From the UHGV virus genome UHGV-1384413: DNA of 64,000 nt; one strand, 5' to 3'. Source of the stretch: a virus. Of the stretch, positions 30,869-40,950 are shown one piece after another. Both the position numbers and the translations under genes were made by a program. The notes beneath the pieces are model-generated. The model was given only the letters and a program-made list of their open reading frames with translations. It did no database searches and had not been told where the DNA came from. Every line of letters starts with the position of its first letter. Within the stretch, counting starts at the first letter, position 1.

Positions 30869-31039
30869 ATGAAAGGTAAAAATAAAAAAGATATCTCAAT
30901 GAACTGCAAGGATATTAATGCAAAACGTGAAAAAGCGGCCCGTGATGCCCTGGTCAACTGGTTGGACTATGAAAAAAGGATGGTTGAAGCTGCAGGAGCT
31001 GCCGCCGGAGCTTTTTACCCTAAAAATAATTTAAGATAG
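30869..31039 (+). CDS. small basic protein (56 aa), tentative
   Basis: ATG at M26 of track ORF with GAGGAGG RBS. Confidence 0.35.
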   Translation: MKGKNKKDISMNCKDINAKREKAARDALVNWLDYEKRMVEAAGAAAGAFYPKNNLR

Positions 31040-31128
31040 CTATTGACAACGTGGCGAGTAACCTGGTATTCTTATCCACAAGATGAACAACACCGCTACA
31101 CCATGCAGCTAACAGAGAGGAAAACAGC

Positions 31129-31326
31129 ATGAACGCATACGGCATTAAAGTACGTCGCAATATTCGCCAGGTGGTCACCGATCAAATGGTTTGCCGGGTG
31201 GATGTAACCATCAACAATGGGCAAGGTCTTTATAAATTCCGTCGCGGTCAGAGCTATACCCGGCAACAGCTTAATCGTTGCGCCCTGACAAAAGGACAGA
31301 TCAACCACTGGTTTAATAAAAAATAA
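31129..31326 (+). CDS. hypothetical protein (65 aa)
   Basis: ORF with GAGAGGA RBS. Confidence 0.5.
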   Translation: MNAYGIKVRRNIRQVVTDQMVCRVDVTINNGQGLYKFRRGQSYTRQQLNRCALTKGQINHWFNKK

Positions 31327-31329
31327 GTA

Positions 31330-31358
31330 TTGACATATAGTCCGACACCAAATACACT
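31330..31358 (+). promoter_or_regulatory. sigma70-type promoter
   Basis: TTGACA, 17-bp spacer, TACACT; approximate coordinates. Confidence 0.45.
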
Positions 31359-31390
31359 AAAAGCACAAAAGACACTGAGAGGATAAAATC

Positions 31391-31789
31391 ATGAAAACCA
31401 CTACCTTTAATTTTGATAATGCGGACTTTTCTTTTTCTGATGTCAAGAACTGCCGTCGTGATCGTGGATTTTACAAGGCTTATAATCTGGTGGGCCTGGA
31501 CGATGACAATAATTTGCACGAAGTAGCTGAGATCCGGTATTATGCCGCCGCCAGCGGGAACACTCAATACTGCGTTTTTTGGATTCACGACAACAAGAAC
31601 AATAAGTACGGTTATACTGGCGGGAAGGCGAGCGGTCACGGTTACGATAAAGCTAATGCAGCACTTGAGAGCGCATTAAATGCTATGGGGATCACTGCCA
31701 ACGGCTGGATCTATGAAGAAGAGTTTTTGTCGGCACTTGCTAACCACCTGGGCTATAAAAAGCACATTGTAACATGCGCCCACGAATAA
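31391..31789 (+). CDS. hypothetical protein (132 aa)
   Basis: ORF with GAGAGGA RBS. Confidence 0.5.
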   Translation: MKTTTFNFDNADFSFSDVKNCRRDRGFYKAYNLVGLDDDNNLHEVAEIRYYAAASGNTQYCVFWIHDNKNNKYGYTGGKASGHGYDKANAALESALNAMGITANGWIYEEEFLSALANHLGYKKHIVTCAHE

Positions 31790-31871
31790 AAATTGTTGAC
31801 ACGCTGCAAAATTCAAGTAAACTAATCACAAAAGGCGGGAAACATTCCCGCCAACACAAAGGAAAAAGATC

Positions 31872-32276
31872 ATGAATAAGAACGTACGCCGCATCATGAA
31901 CGAGCTGGCAAACGATGAAAAAATTATTGACATGCATTTGATCAACATTTGCCGCCGTTGTGTAACATATAACAACCGCGCCGCAAAAGCGCGTGAGATG
32001 AACGCAAAAGGCACCTTAAAGCCCTTCCAGGTGGTGGTAAAGGCCATTAAAGATGTAACTAATACGGCAAACCAGGTACAGGGGAACACCAACGAGAGTA
32101 CCAGTATTGATCCGGCTTACATCATGAAACGGATCCGGACCTGCAAGAACAAAGAGCAAGTGTATAACGTCATAGACTGGTTGGATTCCATGGGCGACGT
32201 GGTGTACAATAGGTTTTCTGCAGCTATCGAGATCCAGCTTGACAGGTTGGACGGGAAAGTACTGAAAACTTACTAA
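31872..32276 (+). CDS. hypothetical protein (134 aa)
   Basis: ORF with AAAGGAAAAAG RBS; TTGACA promoter-like hexamer about 75 bp upstream. Confidence 0.5.
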   Translation: MNKNVRRIMNELANDEKIIDMHLINICRRCVTYNNRAAKAREMNAKGTLKPFQVVVKAIKDVTNTANQVQGNTNESTSIDPAYIMKRIRTCKNKEQVYNVIDWLDSMGDVVYNRFSAAIEIQLDRLDGKVLKTY

Positions 32277-32277
32277 G

Positions 32278-32322
32278 TTTATTTTTAGATGGCCTTGACT
32301 CCAGGGCCATCAATAAAGTAAA
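32278..32322. repeat. conserved 45-bp hairpin element, copy 1
   Basis: TTATTTTTAGATGGCC-ttgactccag-GGCCATCAATAAAGTAAAC directly after stop codon; 7-bp stem GATGGCC/GGCCATC. Confidence 0.55.
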
Positions 32323-32356
32323 CTAATCTCAGTTAAGCGAAAAAGGGGGCTTTAAG

Positions 32357-32476
32357 ATGAGCACTACACGCCAATACACAAAGGTAACTATTATCGTTTG
32401 CGTTGTCGGTTACATCCTGGCGCAAATGTTAATGAGTAGCGCTAACAGTTTTGCAAAATTTTTCTTAAATTTTTAA
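32357..32476 (+). CDS. small hydrophobic peptide (39 aa), tentative
   Basis: ATG after GGGGG RBS; TM-like KVTIIVCVVGYILAQMLM; not in ORF track; approximate coordinates. Confidence 0.3.
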   Translation: MSTTRQYTKVTIIVCVVGYILAQMLMSSANSFAKFFLNF

Positions 32477-32504
32477 TTGACAAGCTAACTTAGATTGATA
32501 TACT
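32477..32504 (+). promoter_or_regulatory. sigma70-type promoter
   Basis: TTGACA, 16-bp spacer, TATACT; approximate coordinates. Confidence 0.55.
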
Positions 32505-32555
32505 TAAACACGTAAACGGGAAAACTTCCCAGAACACACAAAAGGAGAAAACATT

Positions 32556-32906
32556 ATGAATACTTCCATCACTATGACCGCCGAAGAAAAAGCCCTGCAG
32601 ATCGCCGCTCTGAAAAAACAGATTGCAGAACTTGAAGACAAGATCGACAATTTTGAAATCGACGAAGACAAATACGACGATAAATATGATGAATGGCTAG
32701 ACGAAATCTATGGCGAAATTATGATCGGTTGTATCTCTTTTCTTCCGTCGCATATCCTCAAAGAGCTAGATCCTATCGCTTACCGCTGTGGCTTTAGTGA
32801 TTATATTGATAGCCTAGATATTGAAGATGACGAAGACTATCAGGAATTGCAAGCGGAGCTTGAAGAAGTGAAAGAAGAGCTTGCAGAACTGGAAGAAAAC
32901 GAGTAA
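32556..32906 (+). CDS. hypothetical acidic coiled-coil protein (116 aa)
   Basis: ORF with AAGGAGA RBS; Glu/Asp-rich with heptad-like repeats. Confidence 0.5.
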   Translation: MNTSITMTAEEKALQIAALKKQIAELEDKIDNFEIDEDKYDDKYDEWLDEIYGEIMIGCISFLPSHILKELDPIAYRCGFSDYIDSLDIEDDEDYQELQAELEEVKEELAELEENE

Positions 32907-32907
32907 G

Positions 32908-32952
32908 CTTATTTTTAGATGGCCTTGATTCCAGGGCCATCAATAAAGTAAA
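32908..32952. repeat. conserved 45-bp hairpin element, copy 2
   Basis: Near-identical to copy 1, directly after stop codon. Confidence 0.55.
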
Positions 32953-32995
32953 CTTTACACTGTTAACACTGAACTAATACAGAGGAGTTAAAACC

Positions 32996-33241
32996 ATGGC
33001 CGCACTAATTACCAAATATTATGCCCCTACCAACACCAAAAGCGCCCGTATCATGGTAAAAGGCTTCGGACGTAAAAAGGTTTACACCTGGGATTATTCC
33101 CTAGACATGGAAGACAACTACACCAACGCAATGACCGATTTTATTAATGATCTGAATAAACAGATCTTGACCGACTACAAAGTGACCGATATTGCCTACG
33201 TCGGGGAAGGCGGGATCTGTTTTGTAGGCATTGTGAAATAG
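32996..33241 (+). CDS. hypothetical protein (81 aa)
   Basis: ORF with GAGGAG RBS. Confidence 0.5.
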   Translation: MAALITKYYAPTNTKSARIMVKGFGRKKVYTWDYSLDMEDNYTNAMTDFINDLNKQILTDYKVTDIAYVGEGGICFVGIVK

Positions 33242-33287
33242 TTATTTTTTCGGTGGTCCTGGCTGCAGGGCCATCTATAAAGATAAT
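33242..33287. repeat. conserved hairpin element, diverged copy 3
   Basis: TTATTTTTTCGGTGGTCCTGGCTGCAGGGCCATCTATAAAGATAAT; same position relative to stop codon. Confidence 0.4.
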
Positions 33288-33316
33288 TTATTAACACCAT
33301 GAAAGGAGAAAGTAAC

Positions 33317-33670
33317 ATGATCAGCGGTGCAAGTTTTATCATTGGCGCTATTGCTACGGCTTTAATTGTAAACAAGATCCAATCCAAAAACGAAAAAGAG
33401 AGCAACGCCTTTACAGAATACCCATTTTGGGTATTCAACGACAACGAAGACTATATAATCAAGTACAAGGATGAGAAGGGCGACCAGGTAACACCACGAC
33501 CGATCCCGGCTTACAAGATGCAAGAAACACTATACCGCCTAAAGGCTGGAGGCGCAAAAATCGTAGACTTTTGGGGATATGATTGCAAGGATCAGGAGGT
33601 TATAAAACGGCGTATCCGTGCGATTCAGGCAAATATTGAAATCAGTAAAGGGGGAAGTTATGAAAATTAA
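33317..33670 (+). CDS. predicted membrane-anchored protein
   Basis: ATG at M7 of track ORF with AAGGAGA RBS; N-terminal hydrophobic helix. Confidence 0.5.
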   Translation: MISGASFIIGAIATALIVNKIQSKNEKESNAFTEYPFWVFNDNEDYIIKYKDEKGDQVTPRPIPAYKMQETLYRLKAGGAKIVDFWGYDCKDQEVIKRRIRAIQANIEISKGGSYEN

Positions 33671-33857
33671 TTTCGAAAAAATTGTAAAGCGCCCTCATGA
33701 TTCCGAAGAGTTGCCGAAACGCCGCCAGCGTAACAATAAACTGAATAAGCCAAAAAGGTTTGGGAAGATCTGGCGGAATCACTATGATCGCAAATTACCG
33801 GGCCTGCTTTTGGAACGTGAACGACAGGCAGAACGATACCGCCATAAAGACAAATAA
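33660..33857 (+). CDS. small basic protein
   Basis: ATG at M15 of track ORF with GGGGGAAG RBS; Lys/Arg-rich. Confidence 0.4.
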   Translation: MKINFEKIVKRPHDSEELPKRRQRNNKLNKPKRFGKIWRNHYDRKLPGLLLERERQAERYRHKDK

Positions 33858-33868
33858 CAACCAACGCC

Positions 33869-33893
33869 CCGCCATTGTGCGGGGCTTTTTATT
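33869..33893 (+). terminator. intrinsic terminator
   Basis: GCCCCGC-cattgt-GCGGGGC hairpin plus TTTTT; approximate coordinates. Confidence 0.6.
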
Positions 33894-34038
33894 TCTATCC
33901 CGCCGATAGCGCCCCTGGTTGGCCCCACAAGCCCCCTAAAAGCCCCTACCTATGCAATCCCCTTTCTTAACCTGAAAACAGCGCCCAGGGCCGTTTTATG
34001 GCGTTAAAAATATTATTGACAGTGATTTTATTTAAAGC

Positions 34039-34066
34039 TTGACATCTTAAACAGGTTAGATATACT
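34039..34066 (+). promoter_or_regulatory. sigma70-type promoter (second TTGACA 23 bp upstream)
   Basis: TTGACA, 16-bp spacer, TATACT; approximate coordinates. Confidence 0.55.
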
Positions 34067-34098
34067 AACCACATCAAAGAGAGAAAGGAGTAAACGCC

Positions 34099-34359
34099 AT
34101 GCGTAAATTAAAAAATTTTGATAAGGTTGATGTTGTCCTGAATAATTTTTACTACTGCAACAACAAGGCCATTTGGTGGCGTGATAGTTCCACCGATAAA
34201 GTCAAGGCGCGCTTTCTCCAGGGGCACTGGCAAGGCCGCCCAGTGATTAAAATCATGGGGCAATTGGCAGCGTTTAAAAATTGCCGCCGTGTTGATGACG
34301 TTGAAGAGATTTTAAACATTTTGCGCCACAATAATTTAAAAAATAGCGTTGACAAGTAA
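34099..34359 (+). CDS. hypothetical protein (86 aa)
   Basis: ORF with AAAGGAG RBS. Confidence 0.5.
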   Translation: MRKLKNFDKVDVVLNNFYYCNNKAIWWRDSSTDKVKARFLQGHWQGRPVIKIMGQLAAFKNCRRVDDVEEILNILRHNNLKNSVDK

Positions 34360-34375
34360 ATCTAGATAAGTATAC
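34348..34375 (+). promoter_or_regulatory. sigma70-type promoter overlapping the 3-prime end of the upstream gene
   Basis: TTGACA, 16-bp spacer, TATACT; approximate coordinates. Confidence 0.5.
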
Positions 34376-34433
34376 TTAAACACACAGGCGGGAAAACTTC
34401 CCGCCACTAACAAAGAAAATAGGAGAAAATATC

Positions 34434-35065: not shown

Positions 35066-35093
35066 TTGCAATAACCTAAAAACCTGCTATATT
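35066..35093 (+). promoter_or_regulatory. sigma70-type promoter
   Basis: TTGCAA, 16-bp spacer, TATATT; approximate coordinates. Confidence 0.45.
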
Positions 35094-35145
35094 AAAACTC
35101 AAGGGGCAAGACGTTTGCCCCACACAAAACAAAGAGGAAAACATT

Positions 35146-35526
35146 ATGAAAAGCACCACTAAAGCCATTGACACCGTTATGTTTAACCTGGTTACCTTTC
35201 GTGAGGATATGAAAGATCTTCCACGTGAAACAGTGTGCGATCACATCGAAAACTATCGCAAACTGATCAAACAACTGCCTTTAAAACGTGACCAATATGC
35301 GGCTAACGCTATGCTTAACGCCATGATCAAAAAGATGATCCAGTGTGATTTAACTCTGGCCTATGATTATGCAGGCGGTCGTTTTGCAGTATACAATCAG
35401 CCCGTGCCCGGTATGAGCACCACTGAAGAATTGCACGCGTTAAATCTAAAACAAGATGTATGGGATAGCATGCCCCGCGTGGTGGTGTGGGCAGAAAGCG
35501 GAAAGATTTACGGCGATAATTTTTAA
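35146..35526 (+). CDS. hypothetical protein (126 aa)
   Basis: ORF with AAGAGGA RBS. Confidence 0.5.
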   Translation: MKSTTKAIDTVMFNLVTFREDMKDLPRETVCDHIENYRKLIKQLPLKRDQYAANAMLNAMIKKMIQCDLTLAYDYAGGRFAVYNQPVPGMSTTEELHALNLKQDVWDSMPRVVVWAESGKIYGDNF

Positions 35527-35593
35527 TCAGGTAACAGGCGGCGGCATATTTGCCGCCTTATTGTTAAGCAGAATTGTAAGAGAGGTACACAGA

Positions 35594-35965: not shown

Positions 35966-36184
35966 TGCCACGTTAATTAATCCCTTTAGTGAAGATTTGA
36001 AGCCAGCGGCCTGGCGTGAGGGATTCAACACAGAAAGATTTATTTTCAGGCCTGACCTTGAGGAATTTTATAACAATGGATCGAACAACGACAGAGATAA
36101 TTTTTCTTGTAATGTGCGTGGTGATAATACTCCTGGGGGCCATTACAAACCACGTCACTGCTAACAGGAGGAAAGGGGGAGACG

Positions 36185-36304
36185 ATGACAACCAAGGATA
36201 AGCCCCGCACCGATAAGGTGCGCCGTGTTATGGTATGGCTTGAGATCATCGCCCTTGAAATATTGTTAGGCGTAGGGATGTACTTTATCGCTGTAAGTAA
36301 CTGA
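36185..36304 (+). CDS. small membrane peptide (39 aa), tentative
   Basis: ATG with AGGAGG/GGGGGAG RBS; hydrophobic C-terminal half; followed by terminator hairpin; not in ORF track; approximate coordinates. Confidence 0.35.
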   Translation: MTTKDKPRTDKVRRVMVWLEIIALEILLGVGMYFIAVSN

Positions 36305-36308
36305 TAAC

Positions 36309-36338
36309 GGCCCCCAATCCCTGGGGGCTTAACTTTTT
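36309..36338 (+). terminator. intrinsic terminator
   Basis: GCCCCCA-atccc-TGGGGGC hairpin then T-run; approximate coordinates. Confidence 0.5.
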
Positions 36339-36360: not shown

Positions 36361-36389
36361 TTGCAATCCGGTCCGGAATATGGATAATA
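36361..36389 (+). promoter_or_regulatory. sigma70-type promoter, extended -10
   Basis: TTGCAA, 17-bp spacer, TGgATAATA; same ATATGGATAATAA box as promoter near 37170. Confidence 0.5.
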
Positions 36390-36440
36390 ACAATCAACGG
36401 GGAGCAATCCCCACCACAAAGACTAGAAAGGAGAAACAAA

Positions 36441-36641
36441 ATGAGTAACAATATCCGCGTTATTAACTTCAAAAAAGAAGAAAAAATTGCCGTGCTGATT
36501 GACGGTCAAGAAATCTTTAAAGGTGATTATGAAGATCATCAAACGGCGATTAGTATCACTCGCGTGATTGGTTACCATAATTTTTACCCTCAAGGCGCTG
36601 AGGCAGCAGTAAAACGAATTAAAGAGATTGTAGGCCTGTAA
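36441..36641 (+). CDS. hypothetical protein (66 aa)
   Basis: ORF with AAAGGAGA RBS. Confidence 0.5.
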   Translation: MSNNIRVINFKKEEKIAVLIDGQEIFKGDYEDHQTAISITRVIGYHNFYPQGAEAAVKRIKEIVGL

Positions 36642-36643
36642 AA

Positions 36644-36688
36644 TTTATTTTTAGATGGCCTTGATTCCAGGGCCATCAATAAAGTAAA
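36644..36688. repeat. conserved 45-bp hairpin element, copy 4
   Basis: Near-identical to copies 1 and 2, directly after stop codon. Confidence 0.55.
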
Positions 36689-36726
36689 TTTAAACCCTGT
36701 TAAAATAATCAGTGCAAAAAGGAGTA

Positions 36727-37044
36727 ATGATCATGTTTATCCAGGCTAATAATCTTTATTTCTTTGATGGTCAGATCGTAGACGGCGTGGAGGTGGAAAT
36801 CACTGGGTGCCCTGGCGGTCAGGTTATGACTTTTCGGAATAATGCCTTTGATGATTCTCATATCGTTATGAGAATGGAAGTTAGTAAGCTGGATGATAAG
36901 AAAACATTGATTGACTATTCCGTCAAAGATCATCCAGACTACCACATGATCTATGGTGATTTGTGCATTGTTGACCGTGACAAGGTGAACGGCATTGTTA
37001 TAGCCATTGTGAACGATGTTTTCTCTGAGTATTCCGGCAAATGA
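36727..37044 (+). CDS. hypothetical protein
   Basis: ATG at M6 of track ORF with AAGGAG RBS. Confidence 0.5.
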   Translation: MIMFIQANNLYFFDGQIVDGVEVEITGCPGGQVMTFRNNAFDDSHIVMRMEVSKLDDKKTLIDYSVKDHPDYHMIYGDLCIVDRDKVNGIVIAIVNDVFSEYSGK

Positions 37045-37089: not shown

Positions 37090-37123
37090 AAAGGCTATGC
37101 GGTTGCATGGCCTTTATTATTTT
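37090..37123 (+). terminator. intrinsic terminator
   Basis: AAAGGC ... GCCTTT hairpin followed by ATTATTTT; approximate coordinates. Confidence 0.45.
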
Positions 37124-37169: not shown

Positions 37170-37198
37170 ACTTGCATCAAGCCCCACAATATGGATAA
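37170..37198 (+). promoter_or_regulatory. sigma70-type promoter, extended -10
   Basis: TTGCAT, 17-bp spacer, TGgATAATA. Confidence 0.5.
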
Positions 37199-37255
37199 TA
37201 AGAGTTGTCGAGGGGGCTATGCCTCCAATCATTAACAGAAACAGGAGTTAAAACT

Positions 37256-37540
37256 ATGGCTATTGTTACCGCTGGCGATGTAGTAGAAATGGAAGCAAAA
37301 TACTTAAAAGCGGGTATGCATATCCTACGGAATGATCAAGAGTTATTATTAACGATGGTCGACTATAATCCCGGCCAGGATTATCCAAGCATCGACTACT
37401 TTTTTGAGTATGTTGATGAAGAGTTGAAAGAGGATGAGGCCTATTGCGGTGAGTTCTGCAACTTCTTTTGTCCTGATGAGGTTGTAAAGGTTATTTATCA
37501 ACCTGGCGTAGCTTTCCCGCTGCACGCTATCAATAAATAA
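37256..37540 (+). CDS. hypothetical protein
   Basis: ATG at M18 of track ORF with AGGAG RBS. Confidence 0.5.
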   Translation: MAIVTAGDVVEMEAKYLKAGMHILRNDQELLLTMVDYNPGQDYPSIDYFFEYVDEELKEDEAYCGEFCNFFCPDEVVKVIYQPGVAFPLHAINK

Positions 37541-37595
37541 ACCTGGCGGGGCCGAAAAGGCCCCCAATTATGAAAATAAAGATAGGTTAATCATC

Positions 37596-37829
37596 ATGAT
37601 GGAACAAATTAAACGCGCCGAGGCTATTAATGGCAATGTGATCTATTCTGTCAGCAAAAACGAAAAAGGCGTACCATATGCGGCGGTAATAGTACAGCCT
37701 GACGGCGATTATTGGCTTACTGTGTACGGCGCGTATTCTTTCGGTCGTCCAGTGCATGATAAAATTTTGAAAGTAGCTAACCCTACGGGGAAGAATATCA
37801 CGGCAGAAAAATTTTTTGAAAATAATTGA
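37596..37829 (+). CDS. hypothetical protein (77 aa)
   Basis: ORF; weak RBS. Confidence 0.45.
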   Translation: MMEQIKRAEAINGNVIYSVSKNEKGVPYAAVIVQPDGDYWLTVYGAYSFGRPVHDKILKVANPTGKNITAEKFFENN

Positions 37830-37854
37830 CATGACCGCCTGAAAGTGTAGTATA
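37827..37854 (+). promoter_or_regulatory. sigma70-type promoter
   Basis: TTGACA, 16-bp spacer, TAGTAT; approximate coordinates. Confidence 0.5.
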
Positions 37855-37901
37855 TAAATCAAAGGGCAAGCCCCGCCAACCACAAAGAGGATAAAAAAAT
37901 C

Positions 37902-38081: not shown

Positions 38082-38172
38082 AATAGTTTGACAACAAACA
38101 ACTATCTAACAAAGCATAATACATAAGGTGGTAGAATGATCCGCCACCTGGAACAAAGAAGAGGTAAACACC

Positions 38173-38418
38173 ATGAAAAGCAATAAAGGTTATAACGGTC
38201 ACAAAAACAAAACTCATTGGAATGTAAGCCTTTGGATTAATAACGATGAATCATTATACTTATACGCTGTAGGCTTAATAAATGAGTGCGGCAATAAAGA
38301 TAAAGCGGCGGATCTAATGTGCTACAGATTAAAACAGGACGGAATCACTCATACACCTGATGGTTTCAAGTATAGTAAAACTGCAATCCGTGCCGCTATG
38401 GTAGGAATGAAACACTAA
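38173..38418 (+). CDS. hypothetical protein (81 aa)
   Basis: ORF with AGAGGTAA RBS. Confidence 0.5.
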   Translation: MKSNKGYNGHKNKTHWNVSLWINNDESLYLYAVGLINECGNKDKAADLMCYRLKQDGITHTPDGFKYSKTAIRAAMVGMKH

Positions 38419-38492
38419 AAGCACATAGCCGCCTTACCCTGGGGCTGTGGTAGCGGCCCCATGAATAAGGTTACTAACAAAGAATAGAAAAC

Positions 38493-38597
38493 ATGAAACA
38501 GAAATTAATTGATGCGGTAATCCTGGTTATTGCCCTGGGTATTGGCCTGATTGCAACCATGGCTAATATGATCTTGTCTTCCAACGGTATCGGATAA
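38493..38597 (+). CDS. small hydrophobic peptide (34 aa), tentative
   Basis: ATG followed by a single TM-like helix; weak RBS; not in ORF track; approximate coordinates. Confidence 0.25.
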   Translation: MKQKLIDAVILVIALGIGLIATMANMILSSNGIG

Positions 38598-38606
38598 GGT
38601 GGGCAA

Positions 38607-38822
38607 ATGATCACCAACAAAACAGGCAAAACAGAATTTTTACGCAACTTGCAGATCGGCAAGCCCGAGATCTGGTATTGCACTAAAACACCACGTGACG
38701 AAATGAAAGACTTCACCGCCACGCTGCAACGGGTAAAGATATCTATCACGCAGAAAAAAGCCTTGATAGTGGTTGAAGGTGAGATCCCTCAAGCCGTTGT
38801 TATAATTGAGCGTACAGCATAG
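38607..38822 (+). CDS. hypothetical protein (71 aa)
   Basis: ORF with AAGGTGGG RBS. Confidence 0.5.
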   Translation: MITNKTGKTEFLRNLQIGKPEIWYCTKTPRDEMKDFTATLQRVKISITQKKALIVVEGEIPQAVVIIERTA

Positions 38823-38913
38823 TTTAATTTATACAGATACCCGAAAATTAACCAACAAAGCATAAACAGGCGGTTACCGCCGCCTTAAACGTAGCAGAAA
38901 GAGGATAGACAAC

Positions 38914-39198
38914 ATGAAAAAGATGATCGCAGTGGTTGCCCTGGTTGTTGGACTTAATGCGCCTGTAATGGCTAAAGAGCTGGCAAAAGAGGTTGATCTA
39001 ACGGATATCCATGCCGTCAATCAAATCGGGGTTACTTATCGCTTATGCCTTGCCGCTAAAACTTTTAATGACGGTACAACAGAGTACTACGGATTCGAGG
39101 GTATCCGGTGCGGTGAGCTTGCTCGCGACCTTAAGGAAGATCCAGACCTGGAGGATCTGCCCATCACCGTAAACGGTAAAGCTTACGTAAACCGTTAA
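38914..39198 (+). CDS. predicted secreted protein (signal peptide)
   Basis: N-terminus MKKMIAVVALVVGLNAPVMA resembles a Sec signal peptide; AGAGGA RBS. Confidence 0.5.
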   Translation: MKKMIAVVALVVGLNAPVMAKELAKEVDLTDIHAVNQIGVTYRLCLAAKTFNDGTTEYYGFEGIRCGELARDLKEDPDLEDLPITVNGKAYVNR

Positions 39199-39343: not shown

Positions 39344-39535
39344 ATGACAGCAGAAGAAGTTAAAAAAGTACTGGCAGTACTACGTTACCATAATCATTGT
39401 AAGGTGAAGAATGATCCTGATTATCTCGATTCATCCCTTGAAGAGGATACACTACAAGCCATAAGTAACATGCAAGAATTGCTAAAGCGCATGACAGAGA
39501 AAAACCGACCGGACTACATAGGCGAAAAAATATAA
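39344..39535 (+). CDS. hypothetical protein (63 aa)
   Basis: ORF with GGTGGA RBS; followed by terminator. Confidence 0.45.
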   Translation: MTAEEVKKVLAVLRYHNHCKVKNDPDYLDSSLEEDTLQAISNMQELLKRMTEKNRPDYIGEKI

Positions 39536-39550
39536 TCCTTATTGACTAGA

Positions 39551-39579
39551 AAACAGGGCTTGCAATGGTCCTGTTTTTT
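39551..39579 (+). terminator. intrinsic terminator
   Basis: AACAGGGC...GTCCTGTT hairpin followed by TTTTTT; approximate coordinates. Confidence 0.55.
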
Positions 39580-39595
39580 GTTATACTTATTCCAC

Positions 39596-39640
39596 GGCAG
39601 GCACCTGGCGACGGGGGGAGACAATCACCGGGCCTGCCTG
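39596..39640. repeat. GC-rich element, copy C (inverted relative to copies A and B)
   Basis: Reverse complement matches 30623-30659 over about 35 bp; flanked by GGCAGGC/GCCTGCC inverted repeat. Confidence 0.5.
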
Positions 39641-39663
39641 TCATATAAGAACTATAAAAACCG

Positions 39664-39692
39664 TTGACATCTGCCAGGGGGTGGGGTAACAT
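39664..39692 (+). promoter_or_regulatory. sigma70-type promoter
   Basis: TTGACA, 17-bp spacer, TAACAT; approximate coordinates. Confidence 0.45.
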
Positions 39693-39746
39693 TTATCTTG
39701 AAGGGGCAAAAGTGCCCACACAACAACCAGAAGAGAGGAAAACATT

Positions 39747-40019
39747 ATGTCAAGCTGGATTAATCAAGAAGTCGAATCACGTTTTAATGCTATCTGGGAT
39801 CTCGTAGAAAAAGAGGACGGAACATCAAGCCCCTACCTCAACAATTTGGAATTCCATTTTGTGGAAGCGATGAACGCAGAACATGATCACGAAGGTGGCG
39901 CGGATGAGTTCGCTAAAGGTTATGGCTTTAACAATGCCAACGAAATGATCGAGTCGGTTGTACTCCAAGCCGAGGAAGATTATCAATTAAAAACGCTTGA
40001 ATTCTGCCGCCGCAAGTAA
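39747..40019 (+). CDS. hypothetical protein (90 aa)
   Basis: ORF with AGAGAGGA RBS. Confidence 0.5.
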   Translation: MSSWINQEVESRFNAIWDLVEKEDGTSSPYLNNLEFHFVEAMNAEHDHEGGADEFAKGYGFNNANEMIESVVLQAEEDYQLKTLEFCRRK

Positions 40020-40079
40020 TAAGATAATGACAAGGGCCGAAAGGCCCACTAATCAGAACCGCACAAAGAGGAAAACATC

Positions 40080-40343
40080 ATGAAACGTCTTGATCAGCTC
40101 AAATTAGTTCAATATATGGCTTATCGTGTTCTTGAAGTACAGAAAGGCAGCAAAAAAGAAGTTTGCGAGAAAGCGTACAAGATCTTTACTCGCAAAAAAG
40201 ACGATTGGATGTTACGCCAGACTAAAAAGGCTGACATCTTGGGGTACCTGGAAGAAGAGATCCGGCTTGAAGAACAAGAAGAGATCCGCCGTAGTGAGGC
40301 AGATTATCAGGCAGCTTGGGAAAACTGGATGAGCAACAAATAA
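40080..40343 (+). CDS. hypothetical protein (87 aa)
   Basis: ORF with AAGAGGA RBS. Confidence 0.5.
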   Translation: MKRLDQLKLVQYMAYRVLEVQKGSKKEVCEKAYKIFTRKKDDWMLRQTKKADILGYLEEEIRLEEQEEIRRSEADYQAAWENWMSNK

Positions 40344-40406
40344 TACAACAAGTTACATGGTCAGGGGCAATAAAGCCCCTTGATCACACAAAAATTATGC
40401 TATCCT

Positions 40407-40435
40407 TGTTGACAGAGATCGGCAGTTTTGCTATA
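40407..40435 (+). promoter_or_regulatory. sigma70-type promoter
   Basis: TTGACA, 17-bp spacer, TATATT; approximate coordinates. Confidence 0.55.
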
Positions 40436-40485
40436 TTCTTTTTGAAGGGCAGTTGTAAGAAAATTAACTAAGAGGTAAAAACACC

Positions 40486-40905
40486 ATGAACATTAAATCT
40501 GATAATCCGGCATATAGCTTTGATAACGCTTTTTGTCACGGTCCGGCGGCGAAAGGATTCGAAATCGATGGTAAACTAATTATTGTCAATGTTGACGGGG
40601 AAGAGGTTGCAGTATATCCGGTGGCAGACGTTAAAAGCCGTCTACAATGCCGCATCGATGTTACCGCCTACCAGCTTGATCCGGTCCGGGTAGTTGCCCT
40701 GGTCCTGGAAGAAGAAATTAAAGCAATGCACCACAGCAACAAGTTTATTGGTGACGCTCAAGATAATATGCAGGTATGCCGCTATAAAGTTAATGAAGTG
40801 CTTAAAGAGTACGGCTATAAGGATTTAATGATCAAGCGTGATGAAAAATTCCGCTACCGTAACGACCTGGCAAATCGGATTTTTGAAATATACGAATCAT
40901 TATAA
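40486..40905 (+). CDS. hypothetical protein (139 aa); last gene of plus-strand block
   Basis: ORF with AGAGGTAA RBS; followed by strong terminator. Confidence 0.55.
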   Translation: MNIKSDNPAYSFDNAFCHGPAAKGFEIDGKLIIVNVDGEEVAVYPVADVKSRLQCRIDVTAYQLDPVRVVALVLEEEIKAMHHSNKFIGDAQDNMQVCRYKVNEVLKEYGYKDLMIKRDEKFRYRNDLANRIFEIYESL

Positions 40906-40923
40906 TTTCTTAACTGAATTATC

Positions 40924-40950
40924 AAGGGGCTTAAAGGCCCCTTTCTTTTT
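40924..40950 (+). terminator. intrinsic terminator closing the plus-strand block
   Basis: AAGGGGC-ttaaag-GCCCCTT hairpin plus TCTTTTT; approximate coordinates. Confidence 0.6.

What the first reader, a model, noticed from the sequence alone, without database searches (positions are those of the whole stretch)
30900..40950. Promoter-dense early region with several small membrane or secreted proteins
Ten kilobases carry at least 14 near-consensus sigma70 promoters and about 25 genes of 34-207 aa. Several have one or two TM helices or a signal peptide (33317, 35594, 36185, 38493, 38914, 32357). Small membrane proteins expressed early are classic candidates for superinfection exclusion or injection blockers and for host-takeover factors.
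Basis: partly seen in the sequence, partly recalled or inferred. Interest (0 to 1): 0.45.

Follow-up and report, generated by a model that had tools for sequence, protein, structure and literature searches.

The report
Accessory small-gene block of rV5-like phage

Summary
Window 30869-40905 carries 29 + strand genes of 34-207 aa. It has 14 intergenic sigma70-like promoters at >=9/12 (2.7 expected) and 9 at >=10/12 (0.4 expected). Seven products have a TM helix or signal peptide: the six listed plus 39201.

The block is the homologue (~92% identity) of rV5 ORFs 164-197. Its promoters, terminators, small ORFs and five of the seven membrane proteins were published in 2013. Promoter density equals that of the neighbouring block, so the boundaries are not special.

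New here:
- Most gaps are promoter + G/C stem-loop + conserved leader cassettes, like the PeSL cassettes of T4-type phages.
- A 63-nt repeat occurs four times.
- The distal 4 kb is a mosaic of single-gene gains and losses.

Published transposon data on the orthologues in phage Bas54 show that nearly all are dispensable on K-12, including the 'putative holin' (gene 13). Several soluble genes (4, 28, 29 and others) matter on a clinical isolate. Only the membrane-anchored orphan gene 8 is called essential.

Early timing is inferred, not shown. Superinfection exclusion is untested, and no protein resembles a known exclusion factor. Verdict: ordinary and largely known; interest is low to moderate.

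The parts
30869..31039 (+). gene 1, 56 aa, basic
   Evidence: SD AGGAGG; phrog_21957. Only 48% identical to bas54_0103, which is called 'intermediate'. The 5' half is replaced relative to 7 of 8 relatives.
31043..31072 (+). promoter TTGACA-18-TATTCT (10/12) for gene 2
   Evidence: listed by the rV5 paper as P195A (the GenBank record labels the same site P195B)
31129..31326 (+). gene 2, 65 aa, pI 11
   Evidence: orthologue bas54_0104 non-essential
31330..31358 (+). promoter TTGACA-17-TACACT (10/12) for gene 3
   Evidence: rV5 P195
31391..31789 (+). gene 3, 132 aa
   Evidence: phrog_7028; no match to solved structures; orthologue non-essential
31796..31852 (+). cassette: promoter TTGACA-16-TAAACT (10/12) plus leader hairpin GGCGGGAAACATTCCCGCC (31834-31852) for gene 4
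   Evidence: leader MFE z = -6.5. The hairpin is present as its exact reverse complement in 6 relatives. rV5 P194.
31872..32276 (+). gene 4, 134 aa, basic, soluble
   Evidence: phrog_13245. Insertions in orthologue bas54_0106 are depleted on E. coli CFE311 (log2FC -3.18, q reported as 0.00000), while both neighbours are unaffected.
32274..32336 (+). D1 repeat, copy a. It has a 9-bp stem (32288-32311) whose loop and 5' arm hold a -35-like TTGACT, followed 18 nt later by TAAACT (9/12). It lies upstream of gene 5.
32357..32476 (+). gene 5, 39 aa, 1 TM helix
   Evidence: KD19 2.03; rV5 ORF193 '1 TMD'; orthologue non-essential
32477..32530 (+). cassette: promoter TTGACA-16-TATACT (11/12, TG) plus hairpin GGGAAAACTTCCC (32518-32530) for gene 6
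   Evidence: rV5 P192; paralogous to the gene 11 cassette at 76% over 66 nt (family D4)
32556..32906 (+). gene 6, 116 aa, very acidic, coiled-coil-like
   Evidence: phrog_9294. The methods of the HIDEN-SEQ preprint report orthologue bas54_0108 as depleted on E. coli CFE303.
32904..32966 (+). D1 repeat, copy b, upstream of gene 7
32996..33241 (+). gene 7, 81 aa
   Evidence: phrog_3199; orthologue non-essential
33238..33300 (+). D1 repeat, copy c (63% identical to copy a), upstream of gene 8. The stem is kept through G.U pairs, the -35-like motif is lost, and the -10-like hexamer is GATAAT.
33317..33670 (+). gene 8, 117 aa: N-terminal TM anchor plus a compact beta-beta-alpha-beta-alpha domain; an orphan family
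   Evidence: - KD19 1.88.
- Orthologue bas54_0110 is called Essential, with 9 of 31 TA sites hit.
- The family has 7 clusters, all from rV5-like contigs or fragments.
- One remote relative was found among 1.84 billion representatives.
- AF2 gives pLDDT about 90 for residues 40-112.
- No informative fold match.
33660..33857 (+). gene 9, 65 aa, basic; T7 gp1.1 family; overlaps gene 8 by 11 nt
   Evidence: PF08200 E 4.2e-10, 40.3 bits against a cut-off of 21; also noted for rV5 ORF189; orthologue non-essential
33866..33894 (+). intrinsic terminator after gene 9
   Evidence: 7 G-C pairs followed by TTTTTATTT
34039..34066 (+). promoter TTGACA-16-TATACT (11/12) for gene 10
   Evidence: rV5 P186
34099..34359 (+). 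gene 10, 86 aa, basic
   Evidence: phrog_11241; orthologue non-essential
34349..34405 (+). cassette: promoter TTGACA-16-TATACT (11/12) plus hairpin GGCGGGAAAACTTCCCGCC (34387-34405) for gene 11
   Evidence: leader z = -5.1; rV5 P185
34434..35057 (+). gene 11, 207 aa, acidic; the largest gene of the block
   Evidence: phrog_5162; no Pfam or PDB match; orthologue non-essential
35066..35121 (+). cassette: promoter TTGCAA-16-TATATT (9/12, TG) plus hairpin GGGGCAAGACGTTTGCCCC (35103-35121) for gene 12
   Evidence: leader z = -4.0; the hairpin is reverse-complemented in FV3
35146..35526 (+). gene 12, 126 aa
   Evidence: phrog_7352; orthologue non-essential
35540..35565 (+). intrinsic terminator after gene 12
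   Evidence: rV5 t184
35594..35965 (+). gene 13, 123 aa, 2 N-terminal TM helices plus a ~72-aa tail. Some records label it 'putative holin' or 'membrane protein'.
   Evidence: KD19 2.09 and 3.13. Orthologue bas54_0115 is non-essential, 27 of 28 TA sites hit. Found only in Vequintavirus: 119 records, all >=90% identical.
35943..36164 (+). gene 14, 73 aa; overlaps gene 13 by 23 nt
   Evidence: phrog_12060; orthologue non-essential
36185..36304 (+). gene 15, 39 aa, 1 TM helix
   Evidence: KD19 max 2.15; rV5 ORF181 '1 TMD'; orthologue non-essential
36309..36338 (+). intrinsic terminator after gene 15
   Evidence: rV5 t181
36361..36412 (+). cassette: promoter TTGCAA-16-GATAAT (9/12) plus hairpin GGGGAGCAATCCCC (36399-36412) for gene 16
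   Evidence: leader z = -3.4
36441..36641 (+). gene 16, 66 aa
   Evidence: phrog_12347; 100% identical to bas54_0118, which is non-essential
36640..36702 (+). D1 repeat, copy d, upstream of gene 17
36733..37044 (+). gene 17, 103 aa. It is the last gene of the part that is collinear in all 8 relatives.
   Evidence: phrog_7366. A 351-nt extra gene follows it in 4 of 8 relatives.
37090..37123 (+). intrinsic terminator after gene 17
   Evidence: rV5 t177
37172..37226 (+). cassette: weak promoter TTGCAT-16-GATAAT (8/12) plus hairpin (37210-37226) for gene 18
   Evidence: leader z only -0.7
37256..37540 (+). gene 18, 94 aa, acidic
   Evidence: phrog_12610; orthologue non-essential
37548..37564 (+). 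hairpin GGGGCCGAAAAGGCCCC between genes 18 and 19, with no promoter
37596..37829 (+). gene 19, 77 aa
   Evidence: phrog_9227; orthologue non-essential
37826..37873 (+). cassette: promoter TTGACA-16-TAGTAT (10/12) plus short hairpin (37864-37873). It marks the start of the predicted unit gene 20 to gene 26.
   Evidence: rV5 P174
37902..38081 (+). gene 20, 59 aa, acidic
   Evidence: phrog_9374; orthologue bas54_0123 depleted on CFE311 (-2.85, q 0.0012)
38088..38148 (+). cassette: doubtful promoter TTGACA-18-AAGCAT plus hairpin (38127-38148) for gene 21
   Evidence: leader z = -2.9
38173..38418 (+). gene 21, 81 aa, DUF7249. It is the most variable position of the block.
   Evidence: PF23907 E 4.2e-11. 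Deleted or replaced in 6 of 8 relatives and absent from Bas54.
38441..38460 (+). hairpin before gene 22, with no promoter
38493..38597 (+). gene 22, 34 aa, 1 TM helix
   Evidence: KD19 2.55; only 56% identical to bas54_0125, which is called 'reduced fitness'
38607..38822 (+). gene 23, 71 aa
   Evidence: phrog_5988; orthologue depleted on CFE311 (-2.34, q 0.018)
38869..38884 (+). hairpin GGCGGTTACCGCCGCC before gene 24, with no clear promoter
   Evidence: reverse-complemented in FV3, and nearly so (one base differs) in WM
38914..39198 (+). gene 24, 94 aa: Sec-type signal peptide and a 74-aa mature domain with 2 Cys
   Evidence: - Signal peptide called from the sequence.
- Family found in rV5-like and phAPEC8-like phages.
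- AF2 model confident in only 1 of 5 runs.
- Orthologue non-essential on K-12 and depleted on CFE311 (-2.24, q 0.025).
- Deleted in phage WM.
   Evidence: KD19 2.53; rV5 ORF170 '1 TMD'; deleted in MiataMamis
39344..39535 (+). gene 26, 63 aa
   Evidence: phrog_9599; deleted in FV3 and WM; 83-94% nucleotide identity to jumbo phages PBECO4, A4, G17 and SD-6_S16
39550..39580 (+). intrinsic terminator after gene 26, overlapped by a promoter-like site TTGCAA-16-TATACT (39560-39587)
39664..39717 (+). cassette: promoter TTGACA-17-TAACAT (10/12) plus hairpin GGGCAAAAGTGCCC (39704-39717). It marks the start of the unit gene 27 to gene 29.
   Evidence: rV5 P168
39747..40019 (+). gene 27, 90 aa, acidic
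   Evidence: phrog_7287. Homologues at 37-54% identity occur in unrelated ~45-50 kb phages (U136B, Punny, SorkZaugg, McMelon) and in the 145-kb phage A7_1. The rV5 record notes similarity to an RB49 protein.
40034..40047 (+). hairpin GGGCCGAAAGGCCC before gene 28
   Evidence: rV5 and Bas54 carry an extra gene at this gap, with 27 nt of overlapping homology at the junction.
40080..40343 (+). gene 28, 87 aa. Some records label it 'DNA translocase FtsK', which is unsupported.
   Evidence: No Pfam or PDB support. Orthologue bas54_0133 shows the strongest depletion of the block on CFE311 (-5.18, q 0.003).
40409..40437 (+). promoter TTGACA-17-TATATT (11/12, TG) for gene 29
   Evidence: rV5 P164
40486..40905 (+). 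gene 29, 139 aa; the last gene of the arm
   Evidence: phrog_12277. Orthologue bas54_0134 is 'intermediate' on K-12 and depleted on CFE311 (-2.88, q reported as 0.00000). Deleted in FV3 and WM.
40924..40950 (+). intrinsic terminator closing the arm
   Evidence: rV5 t164

Best explanation
Window 30869-40950 is the distal end of the long small-gene arm of a Vequintavirus (rV5-like E. coli myovirus). It corresponds to rV5 ORFs 164-197 and Bas54 genes 0103-0134.

It is a hyperplastic accessory-gene block. Its 29 small genes are packed into roughly fourteen short transcription units. Each unit is driven by a promoter read by the unmodified host sigma70 RNA polymerase, and six intrinsic terminators divide the block.

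Most gaps are built on one plan: an AT-rich tract, -35/-10 hexamers (mostly 16 nt apart), a G/C-rich stem-loop, then a conserved CACAAAGAGGAAAACAnnATG leader.
- In most gaps the stem-loop lies 9-13 nt after the -10 hexamer.
- In four copies of a 63-nt repeat it lies over the -35 hexamer.

This is the same design as the promoter-early stem-loop (PeSL) cassettes of T4-type phages.

Inferred mechanism:
- The genes are transcribed by host polymerase soon after injection, as many small, mutually insulated units.
- The stem-loops attenuate read-through from upstream units, stabilise the 5' end of each mRNA, or both.
- The repeated leader sequences give short homologies at which single genes are gained, lost or swapped.

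The products are individually dispensable host-interaction factors. Some are needed only on particular hosts. Seven are small membrane or periplasmic proteins of unknown role, and one of these (gene 8) is needed even on K-12.

Shown: the sequence architecture, the mosaicism, and the published fitness data on orthologues. Inferred: early timing, what the stem-loops do, and every protein function.
For: Identity of the block:
- It is 92% identical over 99% of its length to Vequintavirus genomes.
- It is collinear with the annotated rV5, navn, SophiaRose, DrSchubert and MaxBurger records.

Promoters:
- They are strand-specific and intergenic, far above chance.
- Nine were already listed for rV5.

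Stem-loops:
- A hairpin lies between the -10 hexamer and the SD site in front of genes 4, 6, 11, 12, 16, 18, 20, 21 and 27. Hairpins without a good promoter precede genes 19, 22, 24 and 28.
- Seven of 14 leaders have MFE z <= -1.9. The mean z is -1.7, against -0.03 for 22 other promoters in the window.
- Only 2 of 24 - strand promoters at >=10/12, and few of the + strand promoters outside the block, are followed by such a hairpin.
- Among nine phages the stems are kept while the loops vary. Some relatives carry three of the hairpins as the exact reverse complement, so selection acts on the stem.

D1 repeat: four copies, all on the + strand and all directly after a stop codon.

PeSL definition: from Arbiol 2010 and Comeau 2014.

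Mosaicism:
- Genes 1-17 are collinear in all eight relatives.
- 37025-40950 shows single-gene insertions, deletions and replacements at genes 17|18, 20-22, 24, 25, 26, 27|28 and 29. Overlapping junction homology of 11-27 nt lies in leader sequences.
- Gene 26 is shared with jumbo phages. Gene 27 is shared with unrelated ~45-50 kb phages and a 145-kb phage.

Dispensability, from Bas54 Tn-seq:
- 27 of the 32 block genes are non-essential on K-12.
- Three are intermediate, one is reduced-fitness, and one (the gene 8 orthologue) is essential.

Host-specific need, on isolate CFE311:
- Orthologues of genes 4, 20, 23, 24, 28 and 29 and of rV5 ORF166 are depleted at q < 0.05.
- The two depleted runs (0123-0129 and 0131-0134) match the units I predicted from a promoter at 37826 to a terminator at 39550, and from a promoter at 39664 to a terminator at 40924.
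- The isolated hit in gene 4 matches a monocistronic unit closed by a D1 element.
Against: - No transcript data exist for any Vequintavirus, so 'early' rests on promoter type alone. The same promoter type also occurs in front of late genes in rV5.
- The stem-loops lack a following T-run, so termination is not predicted by the usual rule. Their function was not tested.
- The D1 stem never varies among orthologues, so there is no covariation evidence for or against an RNA structure.
- Only about half of the breakpoints lie in intergenic cassettes; others are inside genes. With eight relatives I did not test this against a null model.
- The difference in leader folding energy between this block and other promoters is not significant by raw MFE (Mann-Whitney p = 0.13).
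- The runs of depletion on CFE311 may be polar effects, so the responsible genes are not identified.
- The Tn-seq study is a preprint on a phage whose proteins are mostly 82-100% identical to these (three fall to 48-75%), not on this phage.
Confidence: 0.7

Rival explanations
1. One reading: the small membrane and periplasmic proteins (genes 5, 8, 13, 15, 22, 24, 25) are made early. They act at the envelope to exclude superinfecting phages or block DNA injection, as T4 Imm and Sp do.
For: - Seven predicted TM or secreted products sit behind host-type promoters.
- Six of the seven orthologues are non-essential or only 'reduced fitness' in single-phage infection of K-12. That is what an exclusion factor would show.
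- Gene 13 has two N-terminal TM helices and gene 8 has an N-terminal anchor plus a ~95-aa domain. These loosely recall Imm and Sp (from memory, not tested).
- Genes 22, 24 and 25 lie in the variable part of the block, as expected for arms-race genes.
Against: - There is no sequence match to any exclusion, immunity or injection-blocking family in PHROGs or Pfam.
- Fold searches for genes 8 and 24 were uninformative.
- The gene 8 orthologue is essential, which does not fit an exclusion factor.
- TM proteins are barely enriched here (p = 0.065). The opposite arm has as many.
- The fraction (7 of 29) is close to the fraction of membrane proteins in ordinary proteomes (from my own knowledge).
Confidence: 0.15
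2. Gene 13 (35594-35965, 2 TM) is the phage holin, as annotated in the BASEL genomes, so part of the block is a lysis function rather than an early accessory function.
For: It is annotated 'putative holin' in DrSchubert, MaxBurger and AlexBoehm. It has two TM helices and is a small protein. It is conserved in all 119 Vequintavirus records searched.
Against: - The orthologue tolerates insertions at 27 of 28 TA sites.
- It lies about 40 kb from the endolysin (rV5 ORF89 against ORF183).
- The rV5 authors nominated a different protein, gp129.
- That candidate (window 53023-53259, - strand) is also non-essential in Bas54. The two could be redundant, which keeps this rival alive at a low level.
Confidence: 0.1
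3. The promoters do not define an early class. Host-type promoters are used throughout infection in this phage family, so the block is expressed constitutively or late as well, and 'early region' is a misnomer.
For: The rV5 authors found sigma70-type promoters distributed over the whole genome and concluded that polymerase modification might not occur. In the window, promoter density in the direction of transcription is 0.64-1.10 per kb in every arm.
Against: - The rV5 late genes also carry a distinct TGGTAAAATA-type motif that is absent here.
- rV5 encodes a Srd-like anti-sigma candidate that could switch off these promoters.
- The block promoters differ in form from the rest: 16-nt spacers, weaker -10 hexamers and leader hairpins. 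This hints at a separate class.
Confidence: 0.25

Closest known systems
rV5 ORFs 164-197 and the homologous blocks of other Vequintavirus genomes (Kropinski et al. 2013, PMC3606486; Bas54/MaxBurger genes bas54_0103-0134)
   Same: - Same genes in the same order at about 92% nucleotide identity.
- Same promoters (P164, P168, P174, P185, P186, P192, P194, P195, P195A) and terminators (t164, t177, t181, t184).
- Five of the seven membrane proteins were already flagged '1 TMD' or '1-2 TMD'.
- The 'mainly small ORFs' and the adjoining ORF-free stretch were already described.
   Different: - This isolate has its own combination of variable genes. It has gene 21. It lacks rV5 ORF166 and the 351-nt gene that follows gene 17 in four relatives. 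The 5' end of gene 1 is different.
- The cassette architecture, the D1 repeat, the hairpin flips and the signal peptide of gene 24 are not described in that paper.
PeSL (promoter-early stem-loop) cassettes of the hyperplastic regions of T4-type phages RB49/phi1, PST/T4, nt-1/KVP40 (Arbiol 2010, PMC2839356; Comeau 2014, PMC4122927)
   Same: - A near-consensus sigma70 promoter with an AT-rich upstream tract.
- A G/C-rich stem-loop placed after the -10 hexamer or over the -35 hexamer, then SD and ATG.
- Cassettes sit between small ORFans in a variable region.
- Neighbouring single-gene indels between close relatives, with junctions in the -10-to-SD leader.
- rV5-like phages even share several small genes with RB49/phi1.
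   Different: - A different phage family (Vequintavirinae).
- Stem sequences differ and spacers are mostly 16 nt.
- Terminator activity and mini-circle formation are not shown here.
- Only about half of the observed breakpoints fall in the cassettes.
- I found no paper reporting PeSL-type cassettes in rV5-like phages.
T4 Imm and Sp (superinfection immunity/exclusion) and T4 RI/T (lysis control): small early or envelope proteins of a lytic myovirus
   Same: Small size and one or two TM helices, or an N-terminal anchor with a ~90-aa domain, encoded among non-essential genes of a large lytic coliphage (comparison from memory).
   Different: There is no detectable sequence or fold relationship. 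Positive residues follow the TM helix of gene 8, which suggests a cytoplasmic domain, unlike Sp, RI and T. The gene 8 orthologue is essential.
T7 early gene 1.1 (Pfam PF08200 Phage_1_1)
   Same: Gene 9 (33660-33857) matches the family above the curated cut-off. It is small and very basic, and sits behind host-type promoters.
   Different: It is 65 aa, longer than the 40-position Pfam model, of which the match covers positions 1-33. It is embedded in an unrelated phage. The function of gp1.1 itself is unknown (from memory), so the match says little beyond 'early-type accessory gene'.

Membership tests
Vequintavirus small-ORF arm (rV5 ORFs 164-197) | Nucleotide homology and gene order shared with rV5 and its relatives | tested here: met
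   92% identity over 99% of the query; 71 records cover >=80% of it. It is collinear with 9 annotated relatives, and 28 of 29 proteins have Bas54 orthologues.
PeSL cassettes | Sigma70-like promoter (-35 and -10) in the gap between small genes | tested here: met
   14 intergenic sites at >=9/12 against 2.7 expected; 9 at >=10/12 against 0.4 expected
PeSL cassettes | A stable stem-loop, typically G-run/C-run, in one of five positions relative to the promoter | tested here: met
   13 gaps have a G/C stem-loop after the -10 position, and 4 D1 copies have the stem over the -35 hexamer. Seven of 14 leaders have z <= -1.9.
PeSL cassettes | AT-rich tract upstream of the -35 hexamer | tested here: inconclusive
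   Visible in many gaps when reading (for example TTATTTTTA in D1, AAAAATAAGTA before gene 3, TTAAATTTTTAA before gene 6), but not quantified against background.
PeSL cassettes | Located in a hyperplastic region, next to genes that differ between close relatives | tested here: met
   The distal 4 kb shows single-gene gains, losses and replacements in all 8 relatives.
PeSL cassettes | Recombination junctions inside the cassettes | tested here: inconclusive
   Some junctions lie in leaders with 11-27 nt of overlapping homology (gaps g27|g28 and g9|g10), but others lie inside genes. No null model was run.
PeSL cassettes | Stem-loop acts as a terminator or attenuator; mini-circles form by recombination between cassettes | not testable with these tools
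   Needs reporter assays and inverse PCR on infected cells (methods in PMC2839356).
Superinfection exclusion / immunity proteins (T4 Imm, Sp and similar) | Sequence or profile similarity to a known exclusion family | tested here: not met
   All 29 proteins hit only PHROGs of unknown function. No Pfam hit of this kind was found.
Superinfection exclusion / immunity proteins (T4 Imm, Sp and similar) | Blocks a second infection when expressed | not testable with these tools
   Needs an experiment.
Holin (gene 13) | Small protein with one or more TM helices and a charged C-terminus | tested here: inconclusive
   It has two TM helices, but the tail is a ~72-aa mixed-charge domain rather than a short basic tail.
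Holin (gene 13) | Required for lysis and plaque formation | tested here: not met
   The orthologue bas54_0115 is non-essential, 27 of 28 TA sites hit (published data). Redundancy with the gp129 orthologue is not excluded.
Holin (gene 13) | Encoded next to the endolysin (common but not universal) | tested here: not met
   The rV5 lysin ORF89 is at 71.6 kb and ORF183 is at 111.5 kb.
Pfam PF08200 Phage_1_1 (gene 9) | Score above the curated gathering threshold | tested here: met
   40.3 bits against a cut-off of 21, E 4.2e-10
Pfam PF23907 DUF7249 (gene 21) | Score above the curated gathering threshold | tested here: met
   44.1 bits against a cut-off of 27, E 4.2e-11
Sec signal peptide (gene 24) | Basic n-region, hydrophobic h-region, small residues at -3 and -1 | tested here: met
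   MKK / MIAVVALVVGL / NAPVMA|KEL, read from the sequence, and conserved in 19 of 20 aligned homologues. This is a heuristic call, not SignalP.
FtsK DNA translocase (label on gene 28 in some records) | FtsK/SpoIIIE ATPase domain | tested here: not met
   It is 87 aa with no Pfam hit and no PDB sequence hit.

The most novel reading that the evidence does not exclude
Two readings are not excluded by my evidence.

(1) Gene 8 (33317-33670) is a membrane-anchored orphan protein. It is confined to rV5-like phages, with one remote relative among 1.84 billion representatives. Its orthologue is the only gene called essential in this otherwise dispensable block. Both annotated 'holins' of the family are individually dispensable. 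Gene 8 could therefore be an unrecognised essential envelope function, such as lysis, DNA entry or membrane anchoring of replication.

(2) The promoter plus stem-loop cassettes are a Vequintavirus version of PeSL mobile regulatory cassettes. They would move single genes between unrelated phage families: gene 26 with jumbo phages, gene 27 with unrelated ~45-50 kb phages. The hairpin 'flips' would then be a footprint of DNA-level hairpin extrusion.
Probability: 0.3. Interest if true: 0.5.

Novelty: already known. Interest (0 to 1): 0.27.

Why it matters
As stated, the finding re-describes a feature published for rV5 in 2013, so it adds little by itself.

It still matters modestly. These blocks hold the 'dark matter' that decides which hosts a therapeutic phage family can infect. 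In the published Bas54 screen, orthologues of genes 4, 6, 20, 23, 24, 28 and 29 matter only on clinical isolates, so this block is a shortlist for new counter-defence genes.

The operon map derived here (promoters, terminators, insulating cassettes) explains the runs of apparently co-depleted genes in that screen. It also shows which clean deletions are needed to find the responsible genes.

If the cassettes behave like PeSLs, the mechanism of modular gene shuffling proposed for T4-type phages would extend to a second large family of coliphages.

Tried and rejected
- Pfam and PHROGs on all 29 proteins. Only PF08200 and DUF7249 pass their cut-offs, and every PHROG is of unknown function.
- tRNA scan of the window: none found.
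- Rfam on 28000-45000 at E <= 1. The two hits are far below their gathering scores (37 bits against 94; 31 against 80) and were rejected as chance.
- Gene 8:
  - The homologue search gave 7 clusters.
  - The exhaustive HMMER profile search gave one real remote relative plus repeats and noise.
  - The AF2 model is good for the soluble domain.
  - Foldseek against the PDB gave a best E of 0.09, to phycobilisome linker fragments. BFVD returned only its own orthologue and uncharacterised proteins. No function could be assigned.
- PDB sequence searches for genes 3, 4, 11, 28 and 29 found nothing below E 0.2.
- Covariation test of the D1 stem: abandoned, because the stem is invariant in 33 copies from 10 genomes apart from one divergent paralogue. 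Invariant pairs carry no information.
- I considered whether the published anti-defence gene bas54_0140 lies in this block. It does not; it maps to 44320-44619 on the opposite arm.
- I looked for the CFE303 dataset to check the gene 6 orthologue. The stored supplement holds only a duplicate of the CFE311 sheet.
- I searched for transcript-timing or exclusion studies on Vequintavirinae and found none.
- Raw folding energies of leaders in this block against those elsewhere: not significant (p = 0.13), so I rely on z-scores and do not claim more.

Full report
WHAT THE WINDOW IS. The region is 92% identical over 99% of its length to Vequintavirus (rV5-like) E. coli myoviruses. 294 phage records match it, and 71 of them cover at least 80%. 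Comparison with annotated relatives places window 30869-40905 as the homologue of rV5 ORFs 164-197 and of Bas54 genes bas54_0103-0134. The relatives used were navn, SophiaRose, rV5, DrSchubert, MiataMamis, FV3, WM, phiWec193 and MaxBurger/Bas54. This is the distal end of the transcription unit that Kropinski et al. called '10-1-238-164'. All the genes are on the + strand. An ORF-free stretch follows, and then a convergent arm on the - strand.

CHECK OF THE OBSERVATION: GENES. I find 29 genes of 34-207 aa with Shine-Dalgarno sites. All 29 fall in PHROG families. 28 of the 29 have Bas54 orthologues, mostly at 82-100% protein identity; genes 1, 22 and 25 are at 48%, 56% and 75%.

CHECK OF THE OBSERVATION: PROMOTERS.
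- On the + strand of 30900-40950 there are 11 sites matching TTGACA-N16-18-TATAAT at >=10/12, against 1.9+-1.3 in 300 dinucleotide shuffles.
- There are 4 at >=11/12 against 0.13, and none on the - strand at >=10/12.
- Counting only sites whose -10 hexamer lies in the 23% of the block that is non-coding gives 14 at >=9/12 (2.7+-1.6 expected) and 9 at >=10/12 (0.4 expected).
- So 'at least 14' is right at the looser threshold, and nine are truly near-consensus.
- The density (1.09 per kb) equals that of the adjoining block 20000-30900 (1.10 per kb). It is only about 1.5 times that of the other arms. The left boundary of the finding is therefore arbitrary.

CHECK OF THE OBSERVATION: MEMBRANE AND SECRETED PRODUCTS. 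A seventh (39201, 44 aa) was missed. These are hydrophobicity-based calls of my own.

WHAT WAS ALREADY PUBLISHED. The 2013 rV5 paper reports the following:
- 33 sigma70-type promoters, nine of them in the homologue of this block.
- 20 terminators, four of them here.
- TMD calls for ORFs 170, 173, 181, 183 and 193, which correspond to genes 25, 22, 15, 13 and 5.
- The Phage_1_1 domain of ORF189, which is gene 9.

Using that paper's own calls, TM proteins are only weakly enriched in the block: 5 of 16 TMD entries fall in 34 of 233 ORFs, p = 0.065. The opposite arm has as many. The finding as written is therefore a correct re-discovery.

ANATOMY OF THE GAPS.
- Nine gaps, in front of genes 4, 6, 11, 12, 16, 18, 20, 21 and 27, share one plan. 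It consists of -35/-10 hexamers, usually 16 nt apart, then a G/C-rich stem-loop 9-13 nt after the -10 hexamer, then a conserved leader of the form CACAAAGAGGAAAACAnnATG.
- Four more gaps (before genes 19, 22, 24 and 28) have the stem-loop and leader without a convincing promoter.
- Four gaps (before genes 5, 7, 8 and 17) hold a 63-nt repeat that I call D1: TTATTTTTA-GATGGCCTT-GAYTCC-AGGGCCATC-AATAAAGTAAAYT. Its 9-bp stem carries a -35-like TTGAYT in the loop and 5' arm, and TAAAYT follows 18 nt later.
- Six canonical intrinsic terminators follow genes 9, 12, 15, 17, 26 and 29.
- Seven of the 14 leaders fold far better than shuffles (z from -1.9 to -6.5). The mean z is about -1.7, against -0.03 for 22 other promoters in the window.
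- The raw energies do not differ significantly (p = 0.13).
- Outside the block, promoters mostly use 17-nt spacers and lack the hairpin.

CONSERVATION OF THE CIS-ELEMENTS. Among nine phages the stems are conserved while the loops vary. At three cassettes (genes 4, 12 and 24) some relatives carry the exact reverse complement of the whole hairpin. This shows that the stem is what is retained, not the loop or its orientation. It also shows that these palindromes are active at the DNA level. D1 is almost invariant within and between genomes: in 33 copies, variation is confined to two loop positions. The exception is the divergent copy before gene 8, which keeps the stem through G.U-compatible changes but loses the -35-like motif. 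Invariant pairs say nothing about RNA structure, so I make no claim there.

COMPARISON WITH PeSL CASSETTES. Arbiol et al. 2010 and Comeau et al. 2014 describe promoter-early stem-loop cassettes in the hyperplastic regions of T4-type phages.
- Each has an AT-rich tract, a near-consensus sigma70 promoter, a stem-loop (often a G-run/C-run), then SD and ATG.
- The stem-loop takes one of five positions, including after the -10 hexamer and over the -35 hexamer.
- The cassettes lie between ORFans and sit next to indels between close relatives.
- Crossovers were mapped between the -10 hexamer and the SD site.

The design here is the same. I found no paper reporting it in rV5-like phages. rV5-like phages also share several small genes with RB49/phi1.

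MOSAICISM (gene tables). Genes 1-17 (30965-37025) are collinear in all eight relatives compared. From 37025 to 40950 there are many single-gene events:
- A 351-nt gene is inserted after gene 17 in four relatives.
- Gene 21, sometimes with gene 20 or 22, is deleted or replaced in six.
- Gene 24 is deleted in WM.
- Gene 25 is deleted in MiataMamis.
- Gene 26 is deleted in FV3 and WM.
- Gene 29 is deleted in FV3 and WM.
- rV5 has an extra gene between genes 27 and 28, with 27 nt of overlapping homology in the leader.
- phiWec193 has an extra gene after gene 26.
- MiataMamis has a 538-nt insert between genes 9 and 10.

Roughly half of the breakpoints lie in gaps and the rest lie inside genes; I did not run a null model. 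Gene 26 alone is 83-94% identical at the nucleotide level to jumbo phages (PBECO4, A4, G17, SD-6_S16). Gene 27 has 37-54% identical homologues in unrelated ~45-50 kb phages and in a 145-kb phage. This is what a shared, mobile accessory gene pool looks like.

EXPERIMENTAL DATA FROM THE LITERATURE: K-12. A 2025 preprint (HIDEN-SEQ, doi 10.1101/2025.11.20.689424) made a saturated transposon library of Bas54, which is phage MaxBurger, MZ501093. I confirmed orthology by BLASTP. The results on K-12 are:
- 27 of the 32 block genes are non-essential, including the 'putative holin' bas54_0115 (gene 13; 27 of 28 TA sites hit).
- The orthologues of genes 1 and 29, and bas54_0130, are 'intermediate'.
- The gene 22 orthologue is 'reduced fitness'.
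- bas54_0110, the gene 8 orthologue, is 'essential' (9 of 31 sites hit).

EXPERIMENTAL DATA FROM THE LITERATURE: CLINICAL ISOLATES. I identified the uropathogenic isolate as CFE311 because the authors' own hits, bas54_0063 and bas54_0140, are the most depleted genes in that sheet. On CFE311 insertions are depleted at q < 0.05 in these genes:

| Bas54 gene | Window gene | log2FC |
|---|---|---|
| 0106 | gene 4 | -3.18 |
| 0123 | gene 20 | -2.85 |
| 0126 | gene 23 | -2.34 |
| 0127 | gene 24 | -2.24 |
| 0132 | (rV5 ORF166) | -4.34 |
| 0133 | gene 28 | -5.18 |
| 0134 | gene 29 | -2.88 |

The neighbours 0124, 0125, 0128 and 0129 sit at about -2.1 to -2.4. The methods section also names bas54_0108 (gene 6) as depleted on CFE303. 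The authors did not follow these genes up.

HOW THE OPERON MAP FITS THOSE DATA. The run 0123-0129 matches the unit I predicted from the promoter at 37826 to the terminator at 39550 (genes 20-26). The run 0131-0134 matches the unit from the promoter at 39664 to the terminator at 40924 (genes 27-29). The isolated hit in gene 4, with unaffected neighbours, matches a monocistronic unit closed by a D1 element. This agreement supports the map. It also warns that several of the depletions may be polar.

PROTEIN FUNCTIONS.
- Only gene 9 (T7 gp1.1 family) and gene 21 (DUF7249) reach a Pfam cut-off. Both families are of unknown function.
- Gene 8 is an orphan. It has 7 sequence clusters, all from rV5-like contigs or fragments. 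One remote relative with the same layout was found among 1.84 billion representatives.
- Its soluble domain is confidently modelled as beta-beta-alpha-beta-alpha. It has no informative structural neighbour.
- Positive residues follow the TM helix, both in gene 8 and in the remote relative. This suggests a cytoplasmic domain (inference).
- Gene 24 has a conserved signal peptide and two cysteines. Its model is unstable and matches nothing.
- Gene 13 occurs only in Vequintavirus.
- The 'FtsK translocase' label on gene 28 has no support.
- The rV5 authors' own holin candidate, gp129 (window 53023-53259, - strand), is also non-essential in Bas54. The family's holin is therefore still unidentified, or it is redundant.

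VERDICT ON THE INTERPRETATION.
- 'Early' is a reasonable inference from promoter type and from the analogy with T7 and T4, but it is not shown. The same promoter type also occurs before late genes in rV5.
- 'Superinfection exclusion or injection blockers' remains a generic possibility for the six dispensable membrane or secreted proteins. There is no specific support for it.
- The available phenotypes point instead to host-specific roles for soluble genes, and to an essential role for gene 8.

Overall, this is an ordinary and largely published feature of a well-sampled phage genus. It carries a few modest additions:
- PeSL-like cassettes in a second phage family.
- The D1 repeat.
- Hairpin flips.
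- An operon map that explains the Tn-seq runs.
- An essential membrane-anchored orphan (gene 8).

Noticed in passing
window 30140-30870 (just upstream of the block): This ORF-poor flank has three 47-nt direct repeats at 30150, 30215 and 30289, spaced 65 and 74 nt apart. Its Bas54 counterpart is intolerant of transposons. bas54_0101 (= 30295-30399) has 0 of 11 TA sites hit and is called 'essential'; bas54_0102 (= 30454-30719) is called 'strong fitness defect'. The annotated ORFs are doubtful, so a cis-acting element (origin, packaging or regulatory site) or a small RNA seems more likely.
   Followed up: partly
window 40950-43411 (between the block and the convergent arm): This ~2.5 kb ORF-free gap matches the Bas54 intergenic region in which the HIDEN-SEQ authors saw no insertions. 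It holds a 15-nt tandem array (41853-41912), an exact 22-nt repeat (42596 and 42631) and several inverted repeats (41552-41752). Its function is unknown.
   Followed up: partly
window 30453, 30589, 42293, 42311, 42427 (+ strand): The motif AATGATAAnnrTTCTC occurs only in the two ORF-free flanks of the block and nowhere else in the 64 kb. Three copies are exact; across all five matches at <=2 mismatches the chance expectation is 1.7. The copy AATGATAATCATTCTC resembles the E. coli Fur-box consensus (from memory). This suggests a shared protein-binding site in the two insertion-free regions.
   Followed up: partly
window 31834-31852, 35103-35121, 38869-38884: Some relatives carry the leader hairpins of genes 4, 12 and 24 as the exact reverse complement (loop 'flipped'; one base off in WM at gene 24). 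This is a footprint of template switching or cruciform processing at these palindromes.
   Followed up: partly
window 39344-39535 (gene 26): This single 63-aa gene is 83-94% identical at the nucleotide level to jumbo phages PBECO4, A4, G17 and Salmonella phage SD-6_S16. That indicates recent transfer between unrelated phage groups.
   Followed up: no
window 44320-44619 (- strand): This is the orthologue (92% nucleotide identity) of bas54_0140. The HIDEN-SEQ preprint reports that gene as required to overcome the predicted defence system DS-28 of E. coli CFE311. It lies on the opposite arm, outside the finding.
   Followed up: partly
window 53023-53259 (- strand): This is the orthologue of rV5 gp129 (78 aa, 2 TMD), the rV5 authors' holin candidate. 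Its Bas54 orthologue bas54_0164 is non-essential (17 of 19 TA sites hit). Neither annotated holin of the family is individually required.
   Followed up: yes
window 30766-30964: The 5' half of gene 1 and its upstream ~100 nt are replaced by unrelated sequence in 7 of 8 relatives. Only MiataMamis aligns through this stretch. The gene 1 protein is only 48% identical to its Bas54 counterpart.
   Followed up: no
window 40080-40343 (gene 28): Several GenBank records label this 87-aa protein 'DNA translocase FtsK'. No domain or sequence evidence supports the label, which looks like a propagated annotation error.
   Followed up: yes
public records matching the block: 23 records named 'Campylobacter phage' (MG0656xx, host C. 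jejuni) are about 93% identical to this E. coli phage block. They are probably rV5-like coliphages that were mislabelled or carried along in Campylobacter phage preparations.
   Followed up: no
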